Assembly: GCA_946414915.1 (NCBI GenBank)
Contig: CAMKQK010000004.1
Coordinates: forward strand, 1 to 44,013
Direction of reading: 5' to 3'
Source of the DNA: an uncultured Bacillales bacterium
Lineage (GTDB): Bacteria > Bacillota_I > Bacilli_A > RFN20 > CAG-826
DNA: 44,013 nucleotides
The notes beneath the pieces were generated by a model, which saw nothing but the letters and a program-made list of their open reading frames with translations, had not been told where the DNA came from and searched no databases. Of the stretch, positions 1 to 16,448 are shown in pieces (the stretch's first letter is position 1; each line of letters opens with the position of its first letter). The position numbers were made by a program, and so were the translations under genes.

Positions 1-71
1 CAGTATTCACGGATTTGGTTACGGTCAAATTCTAGAATATAGTTTCCGCAATACCTTCTAACTCTTGCCAT
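1..71 (-). CDS. 5' fragment of a hypothetical protein running off the window (MARVRRYCGNYILEFDRNQIREY...)
   Basis: ATG at 71, 2 nt after the stop of the upstream ORF; the frame is open to the window edge. Confidence 0.45.
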   Translation of the reverse strand, partial: MARVRRYCGNYILEFDRNQIREY

Positions 72-10606: not shown

Positions 10607-11539
10607 TTAGTTTTTATAGTAAAGAGCGTTATCCACTATGACGCTAATAACCATTTCGAGATTCTTAATGTTTATTTTGACATCATATTTGCCTTCTTTT
10701 TTGAAGGTAACTGTATACCATAATTCACATGTTCCTGAGTTTAGGTTAGTCTCAGTGTTATTTGTTTTATCTTTGTTAAAAGTTATTTCATAGGCATCAC
10801 TTTTCTCATAAGTAAGGCAATCGTTAGCGTAATCTGAGTCAAAAGTTAAAACGCCATTAAAAGAATACATTATGAATAAATCATTAGCTCTTTCAGTAGC
10901 GCAGACAAAGCGTTGTTCTTTTGTTTCTTGGTCGCCGACTGCCCACGAACCATTATTAACATTTTTAAAAACGGCACTACAAGAATGAGGATTAAATTCT
11001 TCATCTTTCCACACTAGCTGTGGTCTTTCTTTGTCAGTTAATACTGTCGCAGTTCTTCTATAATTTATGCCTTCCTTATAGGTAGTTGGATTATGCTGAC
11101 CATAAAACTCTTTGATAATTAAATAACCATCTTTTTCTCCTAAATAATAGGATTTGCCATTATCAGGAAGGAAATACTCAAGATAGGCATTTTTCTTAAT
11201 GTCAAAGAAAGCATAACCATGATAATACTGGGATTTATTTAAATAACGAAATTCAGTGCAGAAATCACGTCGTCCATCGCCGTTTACATCAGCGAGATAG
11301 AGAGAATCATAAATCTTAAAAGAACCAATATAAAAATAATCACCATGGCCTTTGACTTCTAAGCCTTCATAATCTTTGGTGTTAATAGTTAAAGATTTAT
11401 TAAAGTCAGGGGCTTCTTCATAGCCATTATAAATACACTCCGCTTCAACTAGTTTACCTTCATGATATTTATTACAAGCAGATAAACAAGGAATCATCGC
11501 GGCAATGGCAACAATTATTTTTAAATAATTCTTTTTCAT
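10607..11539 (-). CDS. Hypothetical lipoprotein
   Basis: MKKNYLKII...LSAC lipobox places the start at 11539; contains DVNGDGRRD. Confidence 0.75.
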   Translation of the reverse strand: MKKNYLKIIVAIAAMIPCLSACNKYHEGKLVEAECIYNGYEEAPDFNKSLTINTKDYEGLEVKGHGDYFYIGSFKIYDSLYLADVNGDGRRDFCTEFRYLNKSQYYHGYAFFDIKKNAYLEYFLPDNGKSYYLGEKDGYLIIKEFYGQHNPTTYKEGINYRRTATVLTDKERPQLVWKDEEFNPHSCSAVFKNVNNGSWAVGDQETKEQRFVCATERANDLFIMYSFNGVLTFDSDYANDCLTYEKSDAYEITFNKDKTNNTETNLNSGTCELWYTVTFKKEGKYDVKINIKNLEMVISVIVDNALYYKN

Positions 11540-11690
11540 AGTTTCTGCCTCTGGATTAAGGTAGCAAAAATACATATTTTTTTCAATAATAATCGAAGAA
11601 ATTTCAACCACTACAAATCATTGCTTAAAATAGTTGTGGTTAACTAGGTCAATAATTGAGTAAAATGATAATGATATAGGGAGAAATACC

Positions 11691-11993
11691 ATGGAAATCA
11701 TTAAGAAATTAGAAGGAAAACAACTTTCCATTGCTTTAGTTGGCGAATTAAATAGCATTACCGCACCTGCCTTTGATCAAGTGATTAGAGATAGCTTAAA
11801 AGATGTGACATCACTCGTTTTAGATTTTACTAAACTTGAATACTTATCTTCAGCGGGTTTAAGAGTCCTTTTAATGGCGCAGAAAATCATGAGCGCGCAA
11901 GGCGACATGGTCATTAAAAATGCTAATAAACAAATCCTCGATATCTTTGAGATGACAGGTTTTGCTAATATCTTAAACGTTGAACGTAATTAG
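11691..11993 (+). CDS. STAS-domain anti-sigma factor antagonist
   Basis: GELNSITAP, LDFTKLEYLSSAGLRVLL with the conserved phospho-Ser, and FEMTGF; SD GGGAG. Confidence 0.92.
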   Translation: MEIIKKLEGKQLSIALVGELNSITAPAFDQVIRDSLKDVTSLVLDFTKLEYLSSAGLRVLLMAQKIMSAQGDMVIKNANKQILDIFEMTGFANILNVERN

Positions 11994-12859
11994 ATTCTTT
12001 CAACCACTACTTTTTCTTGGGTAATGATGTGAGGGGTCACTCCGTTTACGGCTTTACGGCAATAGTCGAGAGTCTTCTGCATCTTAGAAGCCACAATTTT
12101 GATTTTTTCAAAGAGTTTGTCATCGTCTGTATGGACTTTCAAGATAAACTCTTTTTCTTTCACTTCTAAATCTCTAATGGCTTCATGTTTCATGAATTCC
12201 ACTAAATCAATTTCTTTAGTGATTTTATTAATGTCATAAGTAGATTGTAAGTTTCTTTGTGCGGTGACATCGATTTCATCAGCGAGTCTCACTAAAGCGG
12301 ATAAATACGGTAAGCAGATGGTGTTACCATTAGGTAATTTTAAAGCTTTTGGATATTCTTTTCCATCTTCTAAATCGGTTTTACGGTGCCCTCTAGAGAT
12401 TTGGACAACCGCAAACATGTGTTCCTTACTAGGGAAATCAAAAAACGCAGCGTATTTTTTAATTAATAAGCCAGAATACTCGTTATGGAATGCACGGATA
12501 ATATCTGGGCGGTTATTTCTGTCGTGTGTTTCAAAATAATCTTTGAAATCGATTTGTTTAGTGAATTCGTCATAGTCTCTTTCACTGATTCCCATACCAG
12601 TATCATGGAAATAGCAACCCATCAAAATAGCGTATATTTCATCAGCGTTTAAATTATCAATTTGTTTACCGATTAATTTATTACAGAACTCAATAACATT
12701 CAAAGAATGGAGCTCACTATGGTCAGTGAAATCAGGAAAGATTAACTTATAGTTAGAAAGGATTCTTTCCATAGCGAAAACTGTATCGCTAAACCTAGAA
12801 TGGAGATCCTTATCTAATTCTCTTAATCTTCCTTCAAGAAGGAAATCATATTTATCCAT
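11990..12859 (-). CDS. HD-domain metal-dependent phosphohydrolase
   Basis: FTDHSELHS...FHDTGM...H...GHR...LADEID metal-binding pattern. Confidence 0.82.
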   Translation of the reverse strand: MDKYDFLLEGRLRELDKDLHSRFSDTVFAMERILSNYKLIFPDFTDHSELHSLNVIEFCNKLIGKQIDNLNADEIYAILMGCYFHDTGMGISERDYDEFTKQIDFKDYFETHDRNNRPDIIRAFHNEYSGLLIKKYAAFFDFPSKEHMFAVVQISRGHRKTDLEDGKEYPKALKLPNGNTICLPYLSALVRLADEIDVTAQRNLQSTYDINKITKEIDLVEFMKHEAIRDLEVKEKEFILKVHTDDDKLFEKIKIVASKMQKTLDYCRKAVNGVTPHIITQEKVVVERI

Positions 12860-12914
12860 GTTAATTCCTTATAGATATATTTTACCTGAGTAAGAAAAAA
12901 AACGCTAAAAAAGA

Positions 12915-12947
12915 AAAAATTCTGACACTTTTTATCGTATCAGAATT
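12915..12947 (-). terminator. Terminator hairpin, identical 33-bp copy of the tRNA-Ser(GCT) downstream terminator
   Basis: AAAAATTCTGACACTTTTTATCGTATCAGAATT is identical at 14814-14846. Confidence 0.85.
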
Positions 12948-12958
12948 ATCTTCTTACG

Positions 12959-12988
12959 TGGGTCGAAAGCACCATTTTGATACAAAGT
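12959..12988 (-). repeat. 30-bp CCA-ending cassette-boundary motif, copy 1
   Basis: Minus strand ACTTTGTATCAAAATGGTGCTTTCGACCCA; 29/30 identical to 13551-13580. Confidence 0.9.
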
Positions 12989-13016
12989 GAGAACACTTGC
13001 ATACAATGCATACACT

Positions 13017-13487
13017 TTATTTTGATTTCATTATATGCTCCATGAATACTGATCTGGTTTTCATTCCCATTTTTTCATAGAACTTTAAAGCGGCGTTATT
13101 GCCTGGCCACACATTTAAAGTAACTTCATAGCAATTATTCTCTTTTGCGGTTTCCACTACTTTTTGATATAAAGCTTCGCCAATACCTTGTTTACGATAT
13201 TTTTCATCGACACATAAGTCATCTAAATGGAAAACCTTTATAGGATACATATTTGAGGTAGGTACTCTAATTTGACACATCGCATAGCCCACGACATAGT
13301 CATTTATAATAGCCACATATATTGGTTTAGTATCATTGTTAATCATTTCTTCAAGTTGTTCTTGATTATATTTGGTTGTTCCAGACATGAATAAATCTGG
13401 TCTTAATTTAGCGTGGATTTCTAAGACCTGAGAAAGTAATTCTAATAATCTAGCAATGTCTTCTTTTTTGGCTCTGCGAATTTCCAT
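13017..13487 (-). CDS. GNAT family N-acetyltransferase
   Basis: LDDLCVDEKYRKQGIG acetyl-CoA motif and N..ALKFYEKMG. Confidence 0.93.
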   Translation of the reverse strand: MEIRRAKKEDIARLLELLSQVLEIHAKLRPDLFMSGTTKYNQEQLEEMINNDTKPIYVAIINDYVVGYAMCQIRVPTSNMYPIKVFHLDDLCVDEKYRKQGIGEALYQKVVETAKENNCYEVTLNVWPGNNAALKFYEKMGMKTRSVFMEHIMKSK

Positions 13488-13517
13488 TTGCTTTATTCTA
13501 CAAAAAATAAAAGAAAA

Positions 13518-13539
13518 ACGGTACTGAATTCAATACCGT
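13518..13539 (-). terminator. Terminator hairpin following boundary motif copy 2
   Basis: ACGGTATTGAATTCAGTACCGT near-palindrome followed by a T-run on the minus strand. Confidence 0.8.
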
Positions 13540-13550
13540 ATTTTTTCTAA

Positions 13551-13580
13551 TGGGTTGAAAGCACCATTTTGATACAAAGT
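13551..13580 (-). repeat. 30-bp CCA-ending cassette-boundary motif, copy 2
   Basis: Minus strand ACTTTGTATCAAAATGGTGCTTTCAACCCA. Confidence 0.9.
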
Positions 13581-13607
13581 TCGTACAGTTCGTACAACTT
13601 TCGTTTA

Positions 13608-14648
13608 TTAATACCAATAGAAATATGTTTTTAAAAAGCGACGCATTTCTTTTAATTTAAACTCATAAGTAGCACTTTCAAGACTACCTTCATAAGAAAT
13701 ACAATCAAGGTCAAAATCATAAAAATATAAGTAAACTATTGTGTTTTTAGAATCGTTAAATCCCACCATCATAAACGATTTGACAGTTGGAAAGCCTTCT
13801 CCATCTTTATTTACCCAATATGTTAAATCAGGGACGATTCGTAAATCGTATCCTTTATAATCAAATTCAAAAAGCATAAAATCCGATCTTTCTTTATCTA
13901 GGTAAAGAGTTTCATATTTTTCATTTGTTAATTCTTTTTGTGATTCATAGTTATCTCCATAAAAAGCGAACAAAGAAATGGAATGATTCTCAAAACTCAT
14001 GAGGAGCGATTGAACTTGATGCTGATAGGCAAAATAAACACTATCATAATCACCTAACTCAGATAATCGAGGCATCACTACACTTGCATTCTCAGTTGTA
14101 TCAAGGCGATTGTTATAGTGGCTAGTGTTTTTATCTAAAGTCCAAATAGTTGGGGCAGCAATTGTATTACAAGCGATATCTCTAACTATAGTCAATCCGA
14201 CAATAATAAATGGGGACATTACAACGGTGATTATGGAAACAAATCCAGCGGTAACATAAGGGGCTCTCTTTTGCCTTCTTACAGCAGAATTATTTATACC
14301 ATTTATAAAATTTGATTTGGACGGGGAACAAAATAATAGAATTGAAAGGAAAACAATTCCAACAACAGTGAAAGATATTAAGCACAATAATTTTGGCGCT
14401 CCAATATCATTTAATCTTCTCGAGCATAAAGAAAGGAACTGTGCAAAAAACAAAACAAGCAAAGCAATTGCCAATATGATAGAAAAAGGGCTGAAATAGG
14501 CTTGAAAGCGGTTTAGAAAAAAGAATATAAGAATGTTTACAAAAAACAATAGCAAAGAATCAGAGGTAAATACCTTATTTGAATCTTCGCTTTTGTAATC
14601 AAATAGTTTTGGAAAAAGGCGAATATATGGGATGTCTTTAGCTTTCAT
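13608..14648 (-). CDS. DUF805-like membrane protein with a C-terminal soluble domain
   Basis: TM helices around SLCSRRLNDIG (DUF805 RRLHD-like), a further TM, then a ~190-aa hydrophilic domain. Confidence 0.7.
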   Translation of the reverse strand: MKAKDIPYIRLFPKLFDYKSEDSNKVFTSDSLLLFFVNILIFFFLNRFQAYFSPFSIILAIALLVLFFAQFLSLCSRRLNDIGAPKLLCLISFTVVGIVFLSILLFCSPSKSNFINGINNSAVRRQKRAPYVTAGFVSIITVVMSPFIIVGLTIVRDIACNTIAAPTIWTLDKNTSHYNNRLDTTENASVVMPRLSELGDYDSVYFAYQHQVQSLLMSFENHSISLFAFYGDNYESQKELTNEKYETLYLDKERSDFMLFEFDYKGYDLRIVPDLTYWVNKDGEGFPTVKSFMMVGFNDSKNTIVYLYFYDFDLDCISYEGSLESATYEFKLKEMRRFLKTYFYWY

Positions 14649-14813
14649 AAAACAATATTACCATATTAGCGCATTTTTATACCTTTCGTTTTTTGGCGTT
14701 TTCAATCGTTTTCACTTTTTAAGCAAAAACAAAAAGAGCCGATAAAAACAGCTTCAATTAACACACATAAACCTTAATTTATAGTAAATACTGCTAAAAA
14801 TGCCCTAAAAATG

Positions 14814-14846
14814 AAAAATTCTGACACTTTTTATCGTATCAGAATT
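14814..14846 (-). terminator. Terminator of tRNA-Ser(GCT)
   Basis: AATTCTGATAC...GTGTCAGAATT plus T-run, 12 nt after CCA. Confidence 0.85.
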
Positions 14847-14858
14847 GTTCTTCTCTAA

Positions 14859-14950
14859 TGGCGGAGTAGGAGAGACTCGAACTCTCGCACCAGTTAACCC
14901 GATCTACTTCCTTAGCAGGGAAGCCCCTTCACCAACTTGGGTACTACTCC
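14859..14950 (-). tRNA. tRNA-Ser(GCT)
   Basis: Acceptor GGAGTAG/CTACTCC-GCCA; anticodon arm CTTCC-CTGCTAA-GGAAG; long variable arm; GTTCGA T-loop. Confidence 0.97.
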
Positions 14951-15008
14951 AGTGCGCCCCTTATCTTAACATAAAGGGCGATTAGAATTAAATAAGAATT
15001 TTAAGAAA

Positions 15009-16448
15009 TTAATAGGCCTTCGCAAATAAAACAACTTTTTTTGCCTTTTTACCGCATACTGGGCATGTGTCTGCGAACGCGATTTGGTTAAATGGCATGC
15101 AGCGTGCGGTCGCGGTTGTTAATTCTTTAATCTTGTTTTCACAAGCTTCGTCACCACACCACATCATCTTAGCGTAACCGCCTTTATCTAAAGCGGCATC
15201 TAAGTCCTTAAGGTCAGTTACTTCAGTCACGTGTTCTAATAAGTATTGGCTGGCCTTTTCATACATTTCTTGATGGATTTGTTTGAATAATTGAATGACG
15301 GTGTCCACCATTTCTTCTTTCTTAACGGTAAGTTTACGGCCATCGTGACGTACAGCAATTGTGACCACACCAGCTTCGATGTCTCTTGGACCGATTTCAA
15401 TACGGACTGGGACACCTTTCATTTCGTATTCAGAATATTTCCAACCTGGTGTTTTATCAGATTCATCACATTTGACTCTGACACCAGCGTCTTTTAACAT
15501 CTTTTCTAATTCTCTTGCAGCTGGGATAACACCTGGCTTTTGTTGCGCAACAGGAATGACCACGGCTTGGATTGGAGCGACGTATGGTGGTAAGGATAAG
15601 CCATTATCATCACCATGTACCATAATAATCGCGCCTAATAAACGTGTAGAGACACCCCATGATGTTTGATGAGGATTGTATAACTTACCATCTCTACCTT
15701 GGAATTTGATGCCAAATGCTTCGGCGAAGCCTGTGCCGAAGTAATGGGTTGTACCACTTTGTAAGGCTTTACCATCTGGCATTAAAGCTTCGATGGAATA
15801 GGTTTCTAAAGCACCAGCGAATTTTTCTTTATCAGTTTTTCTACCTTTGGTGAATGGAATCGCTAAGATGTCACGACCTAAGTCATCGTAGATTTCAAGC
15901 ATTTTTAATGCTTCTGTACGAGCTTCTTCTTCGGTTTCGTGCATTGTGTGGCCTTCTTGCCATAAGAATTCTGCACCTCTTAAGAAAGGACGTGTGGTCT
16001 TTTCCCATCTCACAACAGAACACCATTGGTTATAAAGTTTTGGTAAATCACGATATGAAGAAATAATCTTTGCGTAGTGTTCGCAGAATAATGTTTCACT
16101 GGTTGGTCTAATGATTAATGGGTCATCAATCTTTTGACCACCACCGATATCGGCGATTAAACATTCTGGAGCAAAGCCTTCAATGTGATCTTTTTCTTTT
16201 TGTAATAAAGATTCTGGGATCACAGTTGGCATGTAAACGTTTTGATGTCCTGTTTCCTTAAATCTTTTATTTAAATAGTTTTGGATTTCTTCCCAAATAG
16301 CGTAGCCATAAGGACGGTAAATGATAAATCCTTTAACGGAAGAATAATCCATTAATTCTGCCTTACGACAGACGTCAGTATACCACTGGGCAAAATCGTC
16401 TTCTTGACGAGTAATTGCATCATTTTTTACTTGGTTATTTTGAGCCAT
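15009..16448 (-). CDS. proS: Proline--tRNA ligase (archaeal/eukaryote-like type)
   Basis: DFAQWYTDV, IRPTSET, QWCSVVRWE, EFLWQEGHT, C-terminal Zn Cys and FAKAY end; SD GAGGA before 16448. Confidence 0.97.
   Translation of the reverse strand: MAQNNQVKNDAITRQEDDFAQWYTDVCRKAELMDYSSVKGFIIYRPYGYAIWEEIQNYLNKRFKETGHQNVYMPTVIPESLLQKEKDHIEGFAPECLIADIGGGQKIDDPLIIRPTSETLFCEHYAKIISSYRDLPKLYNQWCSVVRWEKTTRPFLRGAEFLWQEGHTMHETEEEARTEALKMLEIYDDLGRDILAIPFTKGRKTDKEKFAGALETYSIEALMPDGKALQSGTTHYFGTGFAEAFGIKFQGRDGKLYNPHQTSWGVSTRLLGAIIMVHGDDNGLSLPPYVAPIQAVVIPVAQQKPGVIPAARELEKMLKDAGVRVKCDESDKTPGWKYSEYEMKGVPVRIEIGPRDIEAGVVTIAVRHDGRKLTVKKEEMVDTVIQLFKQIHQEMYEKASQYLLEHVTEVTDLKDLDAALDKGGYAKMMWCGDEACENKIKELTTATARCMPFNQIAFADTCPVCGKKAKKVVLFAKAY

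What the first reader, a model, noticed from the sequence alone, without database searches (positions are those of the whole stretch)
12905..14950. Integrase-less, integron-like array of single-gene cassettes stacked at the CCA end of tRNA-Ser(GCT)
Seen, minus strand: tRNA-Ser...CCA, 12 nt, terminator, promoter, DUF805 gene, 27 nt, 30-bp motif ending CCA, 11 nt, terminator, promoter, GNAT gene, 28 nt, the same motif (29/30) ending CCA, 11 nt, terminator, HD gene. All three CCA junctions share this geometry. The flank after motif copy 2 (TTAGAAAAA) resembles the tRNA flank (TTAGAGAAG). The flank after copy 1 repeats the tRNA terminator exactly. Unlike a classic attR, the tRNA 3' arm is not duplicated; only CCA is shared. 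Inference: the modules 13551-14858 and 12959-13550 are small mobile cassettes (terminator-promoter-gene-att) inserted one after another at the tRNA CCA by a recombinase acting in trans. This would be a gene-capture system distinct from attC integrons.
Basis: partly seen in the sequence, partly recalled or inferred. Interest (0 to 1): 0.85.

Follow-up and report, generated by a model that had tools for sequence, protein, structure and literature searches.

The report
Recombinase-less gene cassettes behind tRNA genes
Two small self-contained gene modules sit directly behind a serine tRNA gene and look like hitch-hikers that borrow a phage-type serine recombinase to move, and the same layout is common across a whole order of gut bacteria.

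Summary
On the minus strand, tRNA-Ser(GCT) is followed by two modules, each made of terminator, gene and a ~57-nt right end (RE) finishing in CCA. A third terminator then repeats the first.

The modules are real, discrete and shuffled. The GNAT module recurs at 90-95% identity in at least 8 contexts. Homology always breaks right after the CA. The same left ends abut Ser(GCT), Ser(TGA) and Leu(TAG) tRNAs.

The ends have a fixed geometry: GTAT(C/T)A-N17-CA | N17-TGATAC. This is a ~48-bp dyad centred on the CA of CCA.

Tandem large serine recombinase (LSR) genes sit just upstream of such REs in 8 elements, including a Heliusvirales phage record. One LSR element's outer flank is 92/92 identical to the "empty" tRNA-Ser(GCT) flank of two related genomes.

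The dyad occurs 148 times in 83 of 201 genomes of the order, against 11 control hits. It is often in arrays and lies behind several tRNA types.

Best reading: these are LSR-less cassettes mobilised in trans, like psi-SCC or CIME accretion rather than an attC integron.

Gaps: no LSR in this 71%-complete genome, no genome-level LSR co-occurrence, and no circles seen.

The parts
14859..14950 (-). tRNA-Ser(GCT). Its encoded 3' CCA (14859-14861) is the left junction of the array, a B-type half-site in the proposed model.
   Evidence: ARAGORN; Rfam tRNA 58.5 bits. The same tRNA is followed by 13 different flanks in 16 same-genus genomes.
13551..14858 (-). Cassette 1: T1-type left end, a 346-aa membrane-type ORF (DUF805 N-terminus) and right end RE1.
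   Evidence: The same T1 + DUF805 module follows variant right ends instead of a tRNA in G012 (L009) and in contigs L034/L040.
14817..14846 (-). T1 terminator hairpin inside the left end of cassette 1. Its 5' arm carries TGATAC at 14836-14841, which is +18..23 after the CA.
   Evidence: Terminator scan. Position statistics of TGATAC. The ~170-185-nt T1 left end is conserved in front of different cargo genes.
14676..14705 (-). Promoter-like element TTGAAA-18 nt-TATAAA in the conserved T1 left end (inferred).
   Evidence: Read by eye. It is conserved in other T1 left ends. The consensus scan did not call it.
13608..14648 (-). Cargo ORF of cassette 1 (346 aa; DUF805 at residues 33-112).
   Evidence: No NCBIfam or PADLOC hit.
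13551..13600 (-). RE1: two TGTACGAA direct repeats, then box GTATCA (13570-13575), N17 and CA (13551-13552).
   Evidence: Other strains carry a third 9-nt repeat here (insertion at 13577 in runs X2 and X3).
12959..13550 (-). Cassette 2: T2-type left end, a 156-aa GNAT acetyltransferase and right end RE2.
   Evidence: It lies directly behind tRNA-Ser(GCT) in G008 and G014, and behind four other kinds of right end elsewhere.
13518..13539 (-). T2 terminator hairpin in the left end of cassette 2.
   Evidence: T2-type hairpins precede the GNAT gene in G008, G009, G014, L024 and L039.
13017..13487 (-). GNAT cargo gene.
   Evidence: Pfam Acetyltransf_1, 76.9 bits. All NCBIfam hits are far below their cut-offs; the best are RimI at 62 bits against 86.4 and an AAC(6') group at 53 against 140. 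The substrate is therefore unknown.
12959..13019 (-). RE2: TGTATGCA x2 and TGTTCTCA repeats, then box GTATCA (12978-12983), N17 and CA (12959-12960).
   Evidence: RE2 and T1' together match the dyad pattern (G000:C4:12937-12983).
12896..12958 (-). T1' left-end-type flank (hairpin 12918-12947, TGATAC at 12937-12942). It marks the start of a third unit that has no right end.
11990..12859 (-). HD-CE domain ORF behind T1'. It is either a decayed third cassette or the resident flank.
   Evidence: Pfam HD-CE, 128.9 bits. No RE follows it, and its stop overlaps the convergent STAS gene 11691-11993.

Best explanation
The locus is a stack of two small non-autonomous integrative cassettes, possibly with the remnant of a third. 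They are inserted exactly after the CA of the encoded CCA of tRNA-Ser(GCT).

Anatomy of a cassette:
- A left end: ~17 nt, then TGATAC, built into a terminator hairpin. In the T1 type a conserved leader with a promoter-like element follows.
- One cargo gene.
- A right end (RE): 2-3 degenerate 8-9-nt direct repeats, a GTAT(C/T)A box, 17 nt, then CA.

Where a right end abuts the next left end, the two form a ~48-bp dyad centred on CA. This looks like the attP of a large serine recombinase (LSR).

Proposed mechanism (inferred):
- A tandem pair of LSRs, carried by a related autonomous element or prophage, acts in trans.
- The pair cuts at the CA dinucleotide.
- It excises a cassette, or several together, as a circle whose joint is RE-CA-left end.
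- It re-inserts the circle at a tRNA CCA/terminator site or at an existing cassette junction. The cassette always ends up co-oriented with the tRNA, because CA is not palindromic.
- The tRNA stays intact, because the cut lies at its last two bases.

This genome assembly has no such LSR, so its array is most likely resting.

Shown: modularity, sharp junctions, the end geometry, LSR genes next to right ends, and one occupied/empty site pair.

Inferred: that the LSR binds these ends, the position of the cut, circle formation and present-day activity.
For: (1) Modularity.
- The GNAT cassette is found at 90-95% nt identity in G003, G008, G009 and G017, at about 81% in G012 (an alignment that also spans part of the DUF805 gene), and in contigs L024, L027 and L039.
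- Its downstream flank is different each time, diverging right after CCA.
- It is better conserved than the neighbouring core DNA. G008: 94.1% against 89.8% and 80.0%. G003: 95% against 82%. G017: 89.8% against 83%.

(2) Different anchors.
- One left-end type follows Ser(GCT) in G009 and Ser(TGA) in L033.
- T1-type left ends follow Ser(GCT), Ser(TGA) and Leu(TAG).
- Arrays of up to 3 cassettes occur (L026/L028).

(3) Geometry.
- In all 5 variant right ends found independently of the box, GTAT(C/T)A lies exactly 17 nt before the terminal CA. The same holds in the G002 and G005 variants.
- TGATAC (<=1 mismatch) starts at +17..19 in 17 of 34 unique right-end flanks.
- It does so in 10 of 15 unique Ser/Leu tRNA flanks, against 1 of 12 other-tRNA flanks.

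(4) Recombinase.
- Full LSRs (Resolvase + Recombinase + Zn_ribbon_recom, YARVST motif) end ~30 nt before a full RE in L032. The same holds in G011 and in G002.
- LSR pairs lie 0.3-3.2 kb upstream of the first dyad in G128, G220, G230 and G115.

(5) Occupied/empty pair. The 92 nt after the RE of the L032 LSR element are 92/92 identical to the 92 nt after tRNA-Ser(GCT)-CCA in G001 and G017.

(6) Phage record PV036447.1 (Anaeroplasmataceae phage, Ca. Heliusvirales, tandem LSRs at its end).
- It ends with three direct repeats, GTATTA, N17 and CA.
- It begins with CACCA followed by TGATAC at +18 inside a terminator hairpin.

(7) Order-wide spread.
- The dyad pattern gives 148 matches in 83 of 201 genomes, against 11 for the reversed control.
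- There are often 2-4 on one contig, 1-4 kb apart.
- 4 of 30 fetched loci have a co-oriented tRNA (Thr, Pro, Gly, His) about 1 kb upstream. 3 of those 4 tRNA flanks carry TGATAC at +18.

(8) Population variation. One contig of run X1 joins 12958 directly to 14859, that is tRNA CCA to the T1' flank, with 3 ambiguous bases.
Against: - No LSR is found in this genome: Pfam Resolvase and Recombinase searches, a protein search and tblastn were all negative. The assembly is only 71% complete.
- At genome level the dyad and the LSR Recombinase domain do not co-occur. My hand tally gives 40 both, 43 dyad only, 52 LSR only and 66 neither (odds ratio about 1.2).
- Of the 7 same-genus genomes with the main RE, only G011 has a close LSR relative (82% identity). 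G009 and G012 have distant ones, and 4 have none.
- Half of the right-end flanks lack TGATAC. This includes the 'F' type left end, which has nevertheless moved between two tRNAs.
- Most LSR genes in the genus have no RE-like site downstream. Of 13 examined, 1 was clear, 1 was a near match with CG instead of CA, 4 are the first gene of a pair and 7 had none.
- Only 1 of 6 phage records examined shows the architecture.
- The resemblance to the phage is at motif level only. nhmmer and BLAST find no homology.
- If the phage record is a circle, its left arm has N22 rather than N17.
- Canonical serine integrases recombine attP only with attB. Arrays with attP-like internal junctions need a relaxed enzyme, as in Ccr or the transposon-type LSRs TnpX and TndX (recalled).
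- The function of the 8-9-nt direct repeats is unexplained.
Confidence: 0.6

Rival explanations
1. Fossil accretion. The modules are decayed stumps of repeated integrations of LSR prophages or islands at the same tRNA, analogous to CIMEs. They are now shuffled only by homologous recombination between the conserved left and right ends and by transfer of whole loci between species. There is no cassette-level site-specific mobility today.
For: No LSR in G000, and none found in 3 further RE-bearing genus genomes (G003, G008, G017). A decayed junction occurs in G012, where RE1 is fused into the T2 loop. G014's GNAT cassette lacks a recognisable RE. The HD-CE unit lacks an RE. The ~57-nt right ends and ~180-nt T1 left ends offer homology for RecA-type exchange. 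No circle joints were seen.
Against: Break points fall exactly at the CA in every comparison, not at variable places inside the shared ends. The same cassette sits behind different tRNAs whose flanks share no homology. Single-gene modules with intact ends are numerous and diverse; about 15 cargo sets appear. Run X1 has a precise CCA-to-CCA skip.
Confidence: 0.15
2. A new, still unidentified recombinase or transposase moves the cassettes. The LSR genes next to right ends would be just another cargo, or unrelated neighbours.
For: There is no genome-level co-occurrence of LSR and dyad. The direct 8-9-nt repeats next to the box are not a known feature of serine-integrase sites, to my recollection. 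A 78-aa HTH + zinc-ribbon protein sits right before one RE subtype in 4 contigs. Half of the flanks lack the right-arm motif.
Against: LSR pairs are the only recombinase seen beside right ends. This holds in 8 independent elements across several families of the order. The dyad size (~48 bp), the 2-bp shared core and the lack of target duplication fit serine integrases. No other transposase family was seen among the roughly 60 cassette and flank ORFs scanned.
Confidence: 0.12
3. A tyrosine recombinase does it: the host XerC/XerD (as for IMEX or pdif modules), or an integron- or phage-type integrase with arm-type sites formed by the direct repeats.
For: G000 encodes XerC- and XerD-like proteins. 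tRNA 3' ends are the classic targets of tyrosine integrases. Direct repeats beside a core resemble arm-type sites.
Against: There is no duplicated tRNA segment and only 2-3 shared bases at the junctions. The two conserved motifs are 36 bp apart, which is too far for a tyrosine-recombinase core. No dif-like palindrome is present. No tyrosine recombinase lies next to any array or right end examined. The RE is not an attC-like hairpin.
Confidence: 0.05
4. Single-strand HUH transposition of the IS200/IS605 or IS91 type. Insertion would occur 3' of a short target (CA), guided by the left-end hairpin.
For: The cassettes have no inverted terminal repeats and no target duplication. Insertion is orientation-specific and 3' of a short sequence. 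A hairpin lies near the left end. A Y1 transposase fragment sits at a contig end in G000.
Against: The right end has no matching hairpin. Left-end hairpins vary freely in sequence. The IS200-like left end in G000 is unrelated. No Y1 or Y2 gene lies beside any array.
Confidence: 0.03

Closest known systems
SCC composite islands with ccr-less pseudo-SCC elements in staphylococci and enterococci. Papers seen as search listing and abstracts only: 10.1101/336396, PMC13739063, PMC6222049.
   Same: Arrays of cassettes sit at the 3' end of one housekeeping gene. Many cassettes lack a recombinase and are bounded by repeated att sequences. The recombinases are large serine recombinases, often a pair of a shorter and a longer protein, acting in trans.
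   Different: The target here is the CCA end of tRNA genes, not rlmH. The LSRs are not Ccr: NCBIfam CcrA/B/C scores are 54.7-140 bits against cut-offs of 700-900. The cassettes are mostly single genes of 0.5-3 kb, each with its own terminator. The att arms carry 8-9-nt direct repeats.
CIMEs and site-specific accretion at tRNA genes. Passages read in the IME review PMC5704250.
   Same: Integrase-less elements keep their att sites and pile up in tandem behind a tRNA gene. A related element can mobilise them.
   Different: Described CIMEs depend on tyrosine integrases and are flanked by a repeated tRNA 3' segment. Here only CA/CCA is shared. The same review states that serine-recombinase elements usually insert inside genes.
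Integrons (IntI, attI, attC cassettes)
   Same: Co-oriented arrays of mostly single-gene cassettes. Each ends in a recombination site of variable sequence but fixed architecture. The recombinase is not inside the cassette.
   Different: There is no IntI and no attI/Pc platform. The right ends are not attC hairpins. The cassettes carry their own terminator and apparently their own promoter. The anchor is a tRNA end. The candidate enzyme is a serine recombinase, not a tyrosine one.
Tycheposons of Prochlorococcus. Passages read in 10.1101/2020.12.28.424599.
   Same: Cargo elements stack at a handful of tRNA genes and build flexible islands. A minority (27 of 937) use large serine recombinases.
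   Different: Tycheposons carry their own integrase and often replication genes, and are flanked by partial tRNA copies. The elements here carry neither.
Temperate Ca. Heliusvirales gut phages with tandem LSRs. Record PV036447.1 was read. The main text of PMC11283538 was searched for integrase, tRNA, att and integration site, with 0 occurrences.
   Same: 43-45% identical LSR pairs lie at the genome end. One record shows the same right-end and left-end architecture.
   Different: These are full phages of 47-75 kb. The cassettes have only the two ends and one cargo gene.

Membership tests
Integron | IntI-type tyrosine recombinase with attI and Pc next to the array | tested here: not met
   Upstream of the array are ProRS and an EAL-domain gene. 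The genome's only Phage_integrase hits are XerD- and XerC-like. Their integron-integrase model scores are 143 and 120 bits against a cut-off of 265.
Integron | attC: an imperfect palindrome that folds as a single-stranded hairpin | tested here: not met
   DNA folds of RE1 and RE2 on either strand give z = -0.97 to -1.91, with no long hairpin.
Integron | Mostly promoterless cassettes read from a common promoter | tested here: not met
   Each cassette starts with an intrinsic terminator, so read-through from upstream is unlikely. Own promoters are inferred only.
Large-serine-recombinase integrative elements | LSR gene (Resolvase + Recombinase + zinc ribbon) beside the att arm in autonomous members | tested here: met
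   L032, G011, G002, G128, G220, G230, G115 and phage PV036447.1.
Large-serine-recombinase integrative elements | An att site of ~40-50 bp with dyad symmetry around a 2-bp crossover, and no long identity between partner sites | tested here: met
   GTAT(C/T)A-N17-CA-N17-TGATAC. Only CA is common to all junctions. The cut position itself is not testable here.
Large-serine-recombinase integrative elements | A cognate LSR present in the host that carries the cassettes | tested here: not met
   None in G000 (71% complete). Genome-level odds ratio is about 1.2.
Large-serine-recombinase integrative elements | Excision to a circle and re-integration | not testable with these tools
   Only assembled contigs of public runs were available. 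They gave one precise skip joint in run X1 and no circle joints.
SCC / pseudo-SCC | CcrA/CcrB or CcrC family recombinase and an rlmH target | tested here: not met
   NCBIfam Ccr models score 54.7-140 bits against cut-offs of 700-900. The target is a tRNA.
CIME (cis-mobilisable element) | Flanked by attL/attR that repeat the 3' part of the target gene, and derived from a tyrosine-integrase ICE or IME | tested here: not met
   No tRNA segment is repeated.
Tycheposon | Own integrase (and often a replication module) inside the element, with partial tRNA repeats | tested here: not met
   The cassettes hold one cargo gene and no integrase.
IS200/IS605 | Y1 transposase and subterminal hairpins at both ends | tested here: not met
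   No hairpin in the RE. The Y1 fragment in G000 lies on another contig and has an unrelated end.

The most novel reading that the evidence does not exclude
An order-wide, integron-like gene-cassette economy run by serine recombinases. Hundreds of single-gene cassettes, each insulated by its own terminator and promoter, would parasitise the tandem LSRs of Heliusvirales-type prophages and islands. They would stack behind the CCA of many different tRNA genes and be exchanged between species. The variable 8-9-nt direct repeats would be a second recognition layer, for the second LSR or for a directionality factor, that matches each cassette family to its helper.
Probability: 0.35. Interest if true: 0.8.

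Novelty: new variant of a known kind. Interest (0 to 1): 0.62.

Why it matters
If LSRs do move these cassettes, it shows three things.
- Serine integrases can target the last two bases of tRNA genes without damaging them.
- They can support arrays of recombinase-less single-gene cassettes. That role is usually credited to integrons or to SCC elements.
- This is a main route of gene flux in small-genome gut and rumen Bacilli.

Cargo seen here includes acetyltransferases, membrane proteins, regulators, a mechanosensitive channel and restriction-type defence genes.

The compact ~48-bp sites and their matching LSR pairs would be a natural library of orthogonal integrase/site pairs aimed at conserved tRNA ends. 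The att architecture could also be used to find prophage and island borders in these uncultured lineages.

Tried and rejected
- Rfam scan of 11500-15500: only the tRNA passes. The RE regions give sub-threshold noise.
- tRNA-like or PBS-like reading of the RE: I found no acceptor-stem partner by eye, and the idea was dropped.
- Bridge-RNA/IS110, Tn7-like, IS91 and retro-element readings were considered from recall. They were dropped because there are no inverted ends, no target duplication and no such genes next to the arrays. No dedicated family search was run for IS110, Tn7 or reverse transcriptase.
- Viral contig scans for the RE motif and for the triple repeat: 0 hits each.
- IMG/VR relatives of the LSR (43-44% identity, 10 loci): no RE-like site after the stop.
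- BLAST of the RE+T1' joint against the phage collection: no match. nhmmer with the RE profile on phage and LSR loci: no hit.
- Five further Heliusvirales records (H2, H3, H4, H11, H5): no matching ends.
- G006 prophage with an LSR pair: no tRNA at its ends within the contig. The site after its LSR has CG in place of CA.
- PADLOC on 10 cargo proteins: only the AAA_14/DUF4143 protein of G009 hits a candidate system, PDC-S01.
- Depth differences between the cassettes in runs X2-X4, and parts without cover, are not used as evidence.
- A 14/15 match to the RE box behind tRNA-Arg(TCT) on contig C65 could not be followed, because the contig ends.
- The literature searches returned nothing describing LSR-less cassettes at tRNA CCA ends. 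Subscription journals and supplements were not visible.

Full report
**1. The observation**

On the minus strand the layout is as follows:
- tRNA-Ser(GCT) at 14859-14950.
- 12 nt, then an 11-bp-stem terminator T1 at 14817-14846.
- A 346-aa ORF with a weak DUF805 hit at 13608-14648.
- 27 nt, then the 30-nt motif ending in CCA at 13551-13580.
- 11 nt, then terminator T2 at 13518-13539.
- A GNAT gene at 13017-13487.
- 28 nt, then the motif again at 12959-12988 (29/30 identical).
- 11 nt, then T1' at 12918-12947. Its hairpin is identical to T1.
- An HD-CE domain gene at 11990-12859.

The motif pair is not chance: 0 of 100 shuffles gave any match. Four terminator-like sites were found against 0.9 expected.

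Two points need correction. Promoter-like sites are no more frequent than in shuffles, at 9 against 10.1. The layout of CCA, about 11 nt and a terminator is also generic. In my reading's listing, the genome's 29 tRNA genes end in an encoded CCA, and most are followed by a hairpin plus T-run within ~10-15 nt.

**2. The modules are discrete and shuffled**

The window's genome is a 1.29-Mb MAG, 71% complete. It holds the motif only at these two places.

Distribution of the motif:
- With up to 3 mismatches it occurs in 6 of 22 other genomes of the genus. It occurs in 0 of 38 genomes from other genera of the order sampled.
- A scan of one genome per species gave 8 hits. Seven are rumen or gut 'Bacilli/Erysipelotrichaceae' MAGs. 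One is a chance match inside an Anaerolineae coding region.
- A metagenome scan gave 19 contigs.
- A profile of the ~60 nt ending in CCA finds 34 copies in these 27 sequences.

Evidence for modularity:
- The GNAT module (T2, gene, right end) recurs at 90-95% nt identity in G003, G008, G009 and G017. It recurs at about 81% in G012, in an alignment that also spans part of the DUF805 gene. In every case the sequence after CCA is unrelated.
- In G008 and G014 the GNAT module lies directly behind tRNA-Ser(GCT), with no DUF805 module.
- In G017/L024, G009 and L039 it follows other right ends.
- The T1 + DUF805 module follows the tRNA in the window, but follows variant right ends in G012 and L034/L040.
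- One left-end type follows Ser(GCT) in G009 and Ser(TGA) in L033.
- T1-type left ends abut Ser(GCT), Ser(TGA) and Leu(TAG).
- L026/L028 carry three cassettes in a row.
- All cassette genes are co-oriented with the tRNA.
- The GNAT module is better conserved than the core DNA beside it. This fits horizontal spread.
- Sixteen genomes of the genus show 13 different sequences directly after the same tRNA.

**3. Anatomy of the ends**

The right end (RE) has four parts in order:
- two or three 8-9-nt direct repeats, such as TGTACGAA, TGTATGCA or TGTTTTCA;
- a box GTAT(C/T)A;
- 17 nt;
- CA.

I found five variant right ends by looking upstream of recognisable left ends, not by searching for the box. 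In all five the box lies exactly 17 nt before the terminal CA, and the ends read CCA, TCA, ACA or CTA. The same holds in G002 and G005. In L025 the homology to the RE starts only 27 nt before the junction, which is the size of one half-site.

On the other side of the junction, TGATAC (<=1 mismatch) starts at +17..19 as follows:
- 17 of 34 unique right-end flanks;
- 10 of 15 unique Ser/Leu tRNA flanks;
- 1 of 12 other-tRNA flanks.

It sits in the 5' arm or loop of otherwise unrelated terminator hairpins. An RE joined to such a left end is therefore a ~48-bp dyad, GTATCA-N17-CA-N17-TGATAC, centred on the CA of CCA. RE2 + T1' in the window is one such dyad.

The RE does not fold like an attC. The T1 left end is conserved for ~170-185 nt in front of different cargo genes. 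It includes a second hairpin and a promoter-like element.

**4. A candidate recombinase**

*LSR genes beside right ends.*
- In contig L032 two tandem large serine recombinase genes end about 30 nt before a full RE. The complete one is 555 aa, has all three Pfam domains and carries a YARVST motif.
- The ORF before the RE of G011 is 82% identical to it.
- In G002 an LSR pair is followed at once by a variant RE. A one-gene cassette and a second RE come next.

*An occupied/empty site pair.* The 92 nt after the L032 RE are 92/92 identical to the 92 nt after tRNA-Ser(GCT)-CCA in G001 and G017. The break is at the same base.

*The nearest phage relatives.* The closest LSRs in the phage collection (43-45% identity) are tandem LSRs of Ca. 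Heliusvirales gut phages. One record, PV036447.1, is from an Anaeroplasmataceae host.
- It ends with three direct repeats, GTATTA, N17 and CA.
- It begins with CACCA, followed by TGATAC at +18 in a terminator hairpin.

*More distant genomes.* In four more distant genomes of the order (G128, G220, G230, G115), pairs of a short (~440-510 aa) and a long (~530 aa) LSR lie 0.3-3.2 kb upstream of the first dyad on the same strand.

*Other recombinases in this genome.* The window genome's own tyrosine recombinases are XerC/XerD-like.

**5. Spread**

- The dyad pattern gives 148 matches in 83 of 201 genomes of the order. Matches occur in six of the eight families. The reversed control pattern gives 11 (totals summed by hand).
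- Matches fall into sequence families. They often lie 2-4 on a contig, 1-4 kb apart and on one strand.
- Of 30 fetched loci, 4 show a co-oriented tRNA (Thr, Pro, Gly, His) about 1 kb upstream, and none shows an opposed one. 3 of those 4 tRNA flanks carry TGATAC at +18.
- The window's own genome has a second array on contig C28. tRNA-Glu(CTC) is followed by a 3.25-kb cassette with an EcoRI-type methylase and a GmrSD/HNH nuclease, then a variant RE.

**6. What speaks against the model, and the gaps**

- No LSR is found in this genome.
- Across the 201 genomes the dyad and the LSR domain do not co-occur. My hand tally gives 40/43/52/66, an odds ratio of about 1.2.
- Only G011 among the seven genus genomes with the main RE has a close LSR relative.
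- Half of the flanks lack TGATAC. These include a left-end type that has clearly moved.
- Most LSR genes of the genus have no such site downstream.
- Five of six phage records examined do not show the ends.
- The likeness to the one that does is at motif level only.
- If that record is a circle, its left arm is 5 nt longer.
- Only assembled contigs of public runs could be laid. They gave one contig in run X1 (depth 4, 27 nt on the short side) that joins tRNA CCA directly to the T1' flank. They gave a 9-nt repeat-number variant in RE1 and no circle joints.
- The direct repeats have no explanation.

**7. Most likely mechanism**

Shown:
- Cassettes are discrete.
- They end at CA.
- They have dyad-forming ends.
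- They sit behind tRNA CCA ends.
- LSR pairs lie beside such ends in autonomous relatives.

Inferred:
- An LSR pair binds the box motifs on both sides and cuts at the CA dinucleotide.
- It releases one or several cassettes as a circle with an RE-CA-left-end joint.
- It inserts circles at tRNA CCA/terminator sites or at existing joints.
- The non-palindromic CA fixes the orientation, and the tRNA stays whole.
- The left-end terminator then ends the upstream tRNA or cassette transcript, and the cassette's own promoter drives its gene.

Internal junctions look like attP. The enzyme must therefore be less strict than classical phage integrases, as Ccr, TnpX and TndX are (recalled, and partly from PMC5704250). 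I put this reading at about 0.6.

**8. Comparison with known systems**

In working principle the closest match is SCC composite islands with ccr-less pseudo-SCC elements, and CIME accretion. The likeness to integrons is one of layout only. The locus fails the defining tests for integrons, SCC, CIMEs, tycheposons and IS200/IS605 (see the membership table). It meets the sequence-level tests for LSR att sites.

I found no description of LSR-less cassettes at tRNA CCA ends in the searches. The main text of the Heliusvirales paper has no mention of integrase, tRNA or att sites. Supplements and subscription journals were not visible.

**9. Verdict**

- The feature is real.
- The mechanism is most likely a known enzyme class used in an undescribed way, and it is widespread.
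- Novelty: a new variant of a known kind.
- Interest: 0.62.

Noticed in passing
G000 contig C28 (L152: 187-3537); not in the window: A second array in the same genome. tRNA-Glu(CTC) is followed by a 3.25-kb cassette with a 103-aa ORF, an EcoRI-type adenine methylase (394 bits) and a GmrSD_N + HNH nuclease. It ends in a variant right end plus a T1-like flank.
   Followed up: partly
G000 contigs C53:247-294, C65:4967-5000 and C44:1-189: A further dyad site lies near a contig start (C53). TGATAC sits at +18 behind tRNA-Arg(TCT), inside a palindrome (C65). A T1-like hairpin follows tRNA-Glu(TTC) (C44). All three lie at contig ends, so these may be more arrays that broke the assembly.
   Followed up: partly
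L011:4719-4955 (G009); also L029, L033, L037: A 78-aa HTH + C-terminal zinc-ribbon protein, followed by its own terminator, sits directly before one right-end subtype in four contigs with different cargo. It could be an accessory or directionality factor, or just linked cargo.
   Followed up: partly
window 13577 (RE1), runs X2 and X3: Other strains carry one more 9-nt repeat unit in RE1. The number of direct repeats therefore varies within populations.
   Followed up: no
L009 (G012), junction between the DUF805 and GNAT genes: The RE1/T2 junction is deleted from inside the RE to inside the T2 loop. This fuses two cassettes into one fixed unit.
   Followed up: no
L028:2390-3870 versus L026:2867-2912: An insertion sequence with two ORFs (169 and 222 aa) sits in the loop of the terminator behind the last cassette in L028. 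It is absent from the otherwise identical L026.
   Followed up: no
window 11990-11993: The HD-CE gene (minus strand) and a STAS-domain gene (plus strand, 11691-11993) converge, and their ends overlap by 4 bases.
   Followed up: no
G000 contig C40:8-73 (L044): The start of an IS200/IS605 Y1 transposase gene lies at a contig end. Its upstream hairpin is unrelated to the cassette ends.
   Followed up: yes
L070 (G002:C2), L151 (G115:C5), L149 (G230:C1): Genes lying between the LSR pair and the right end, or in the next cassette, include a GmrSD-like nuclease, DUF6273 surface-repeat proteins and a MuF_C-domain protein. The att-proximal slot seems to collect accessory or defence genes.
   Followed up: partly
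L101 (phage PV036416.1), just after the LSR stop: A Heliusvirales phage from a different host carries four direct repeats of an unrelated 8-mer right after its LSR gene. Direct repeats behind the LSR gene may therefore be a general feature of this LSR clade.
   Followed up: no
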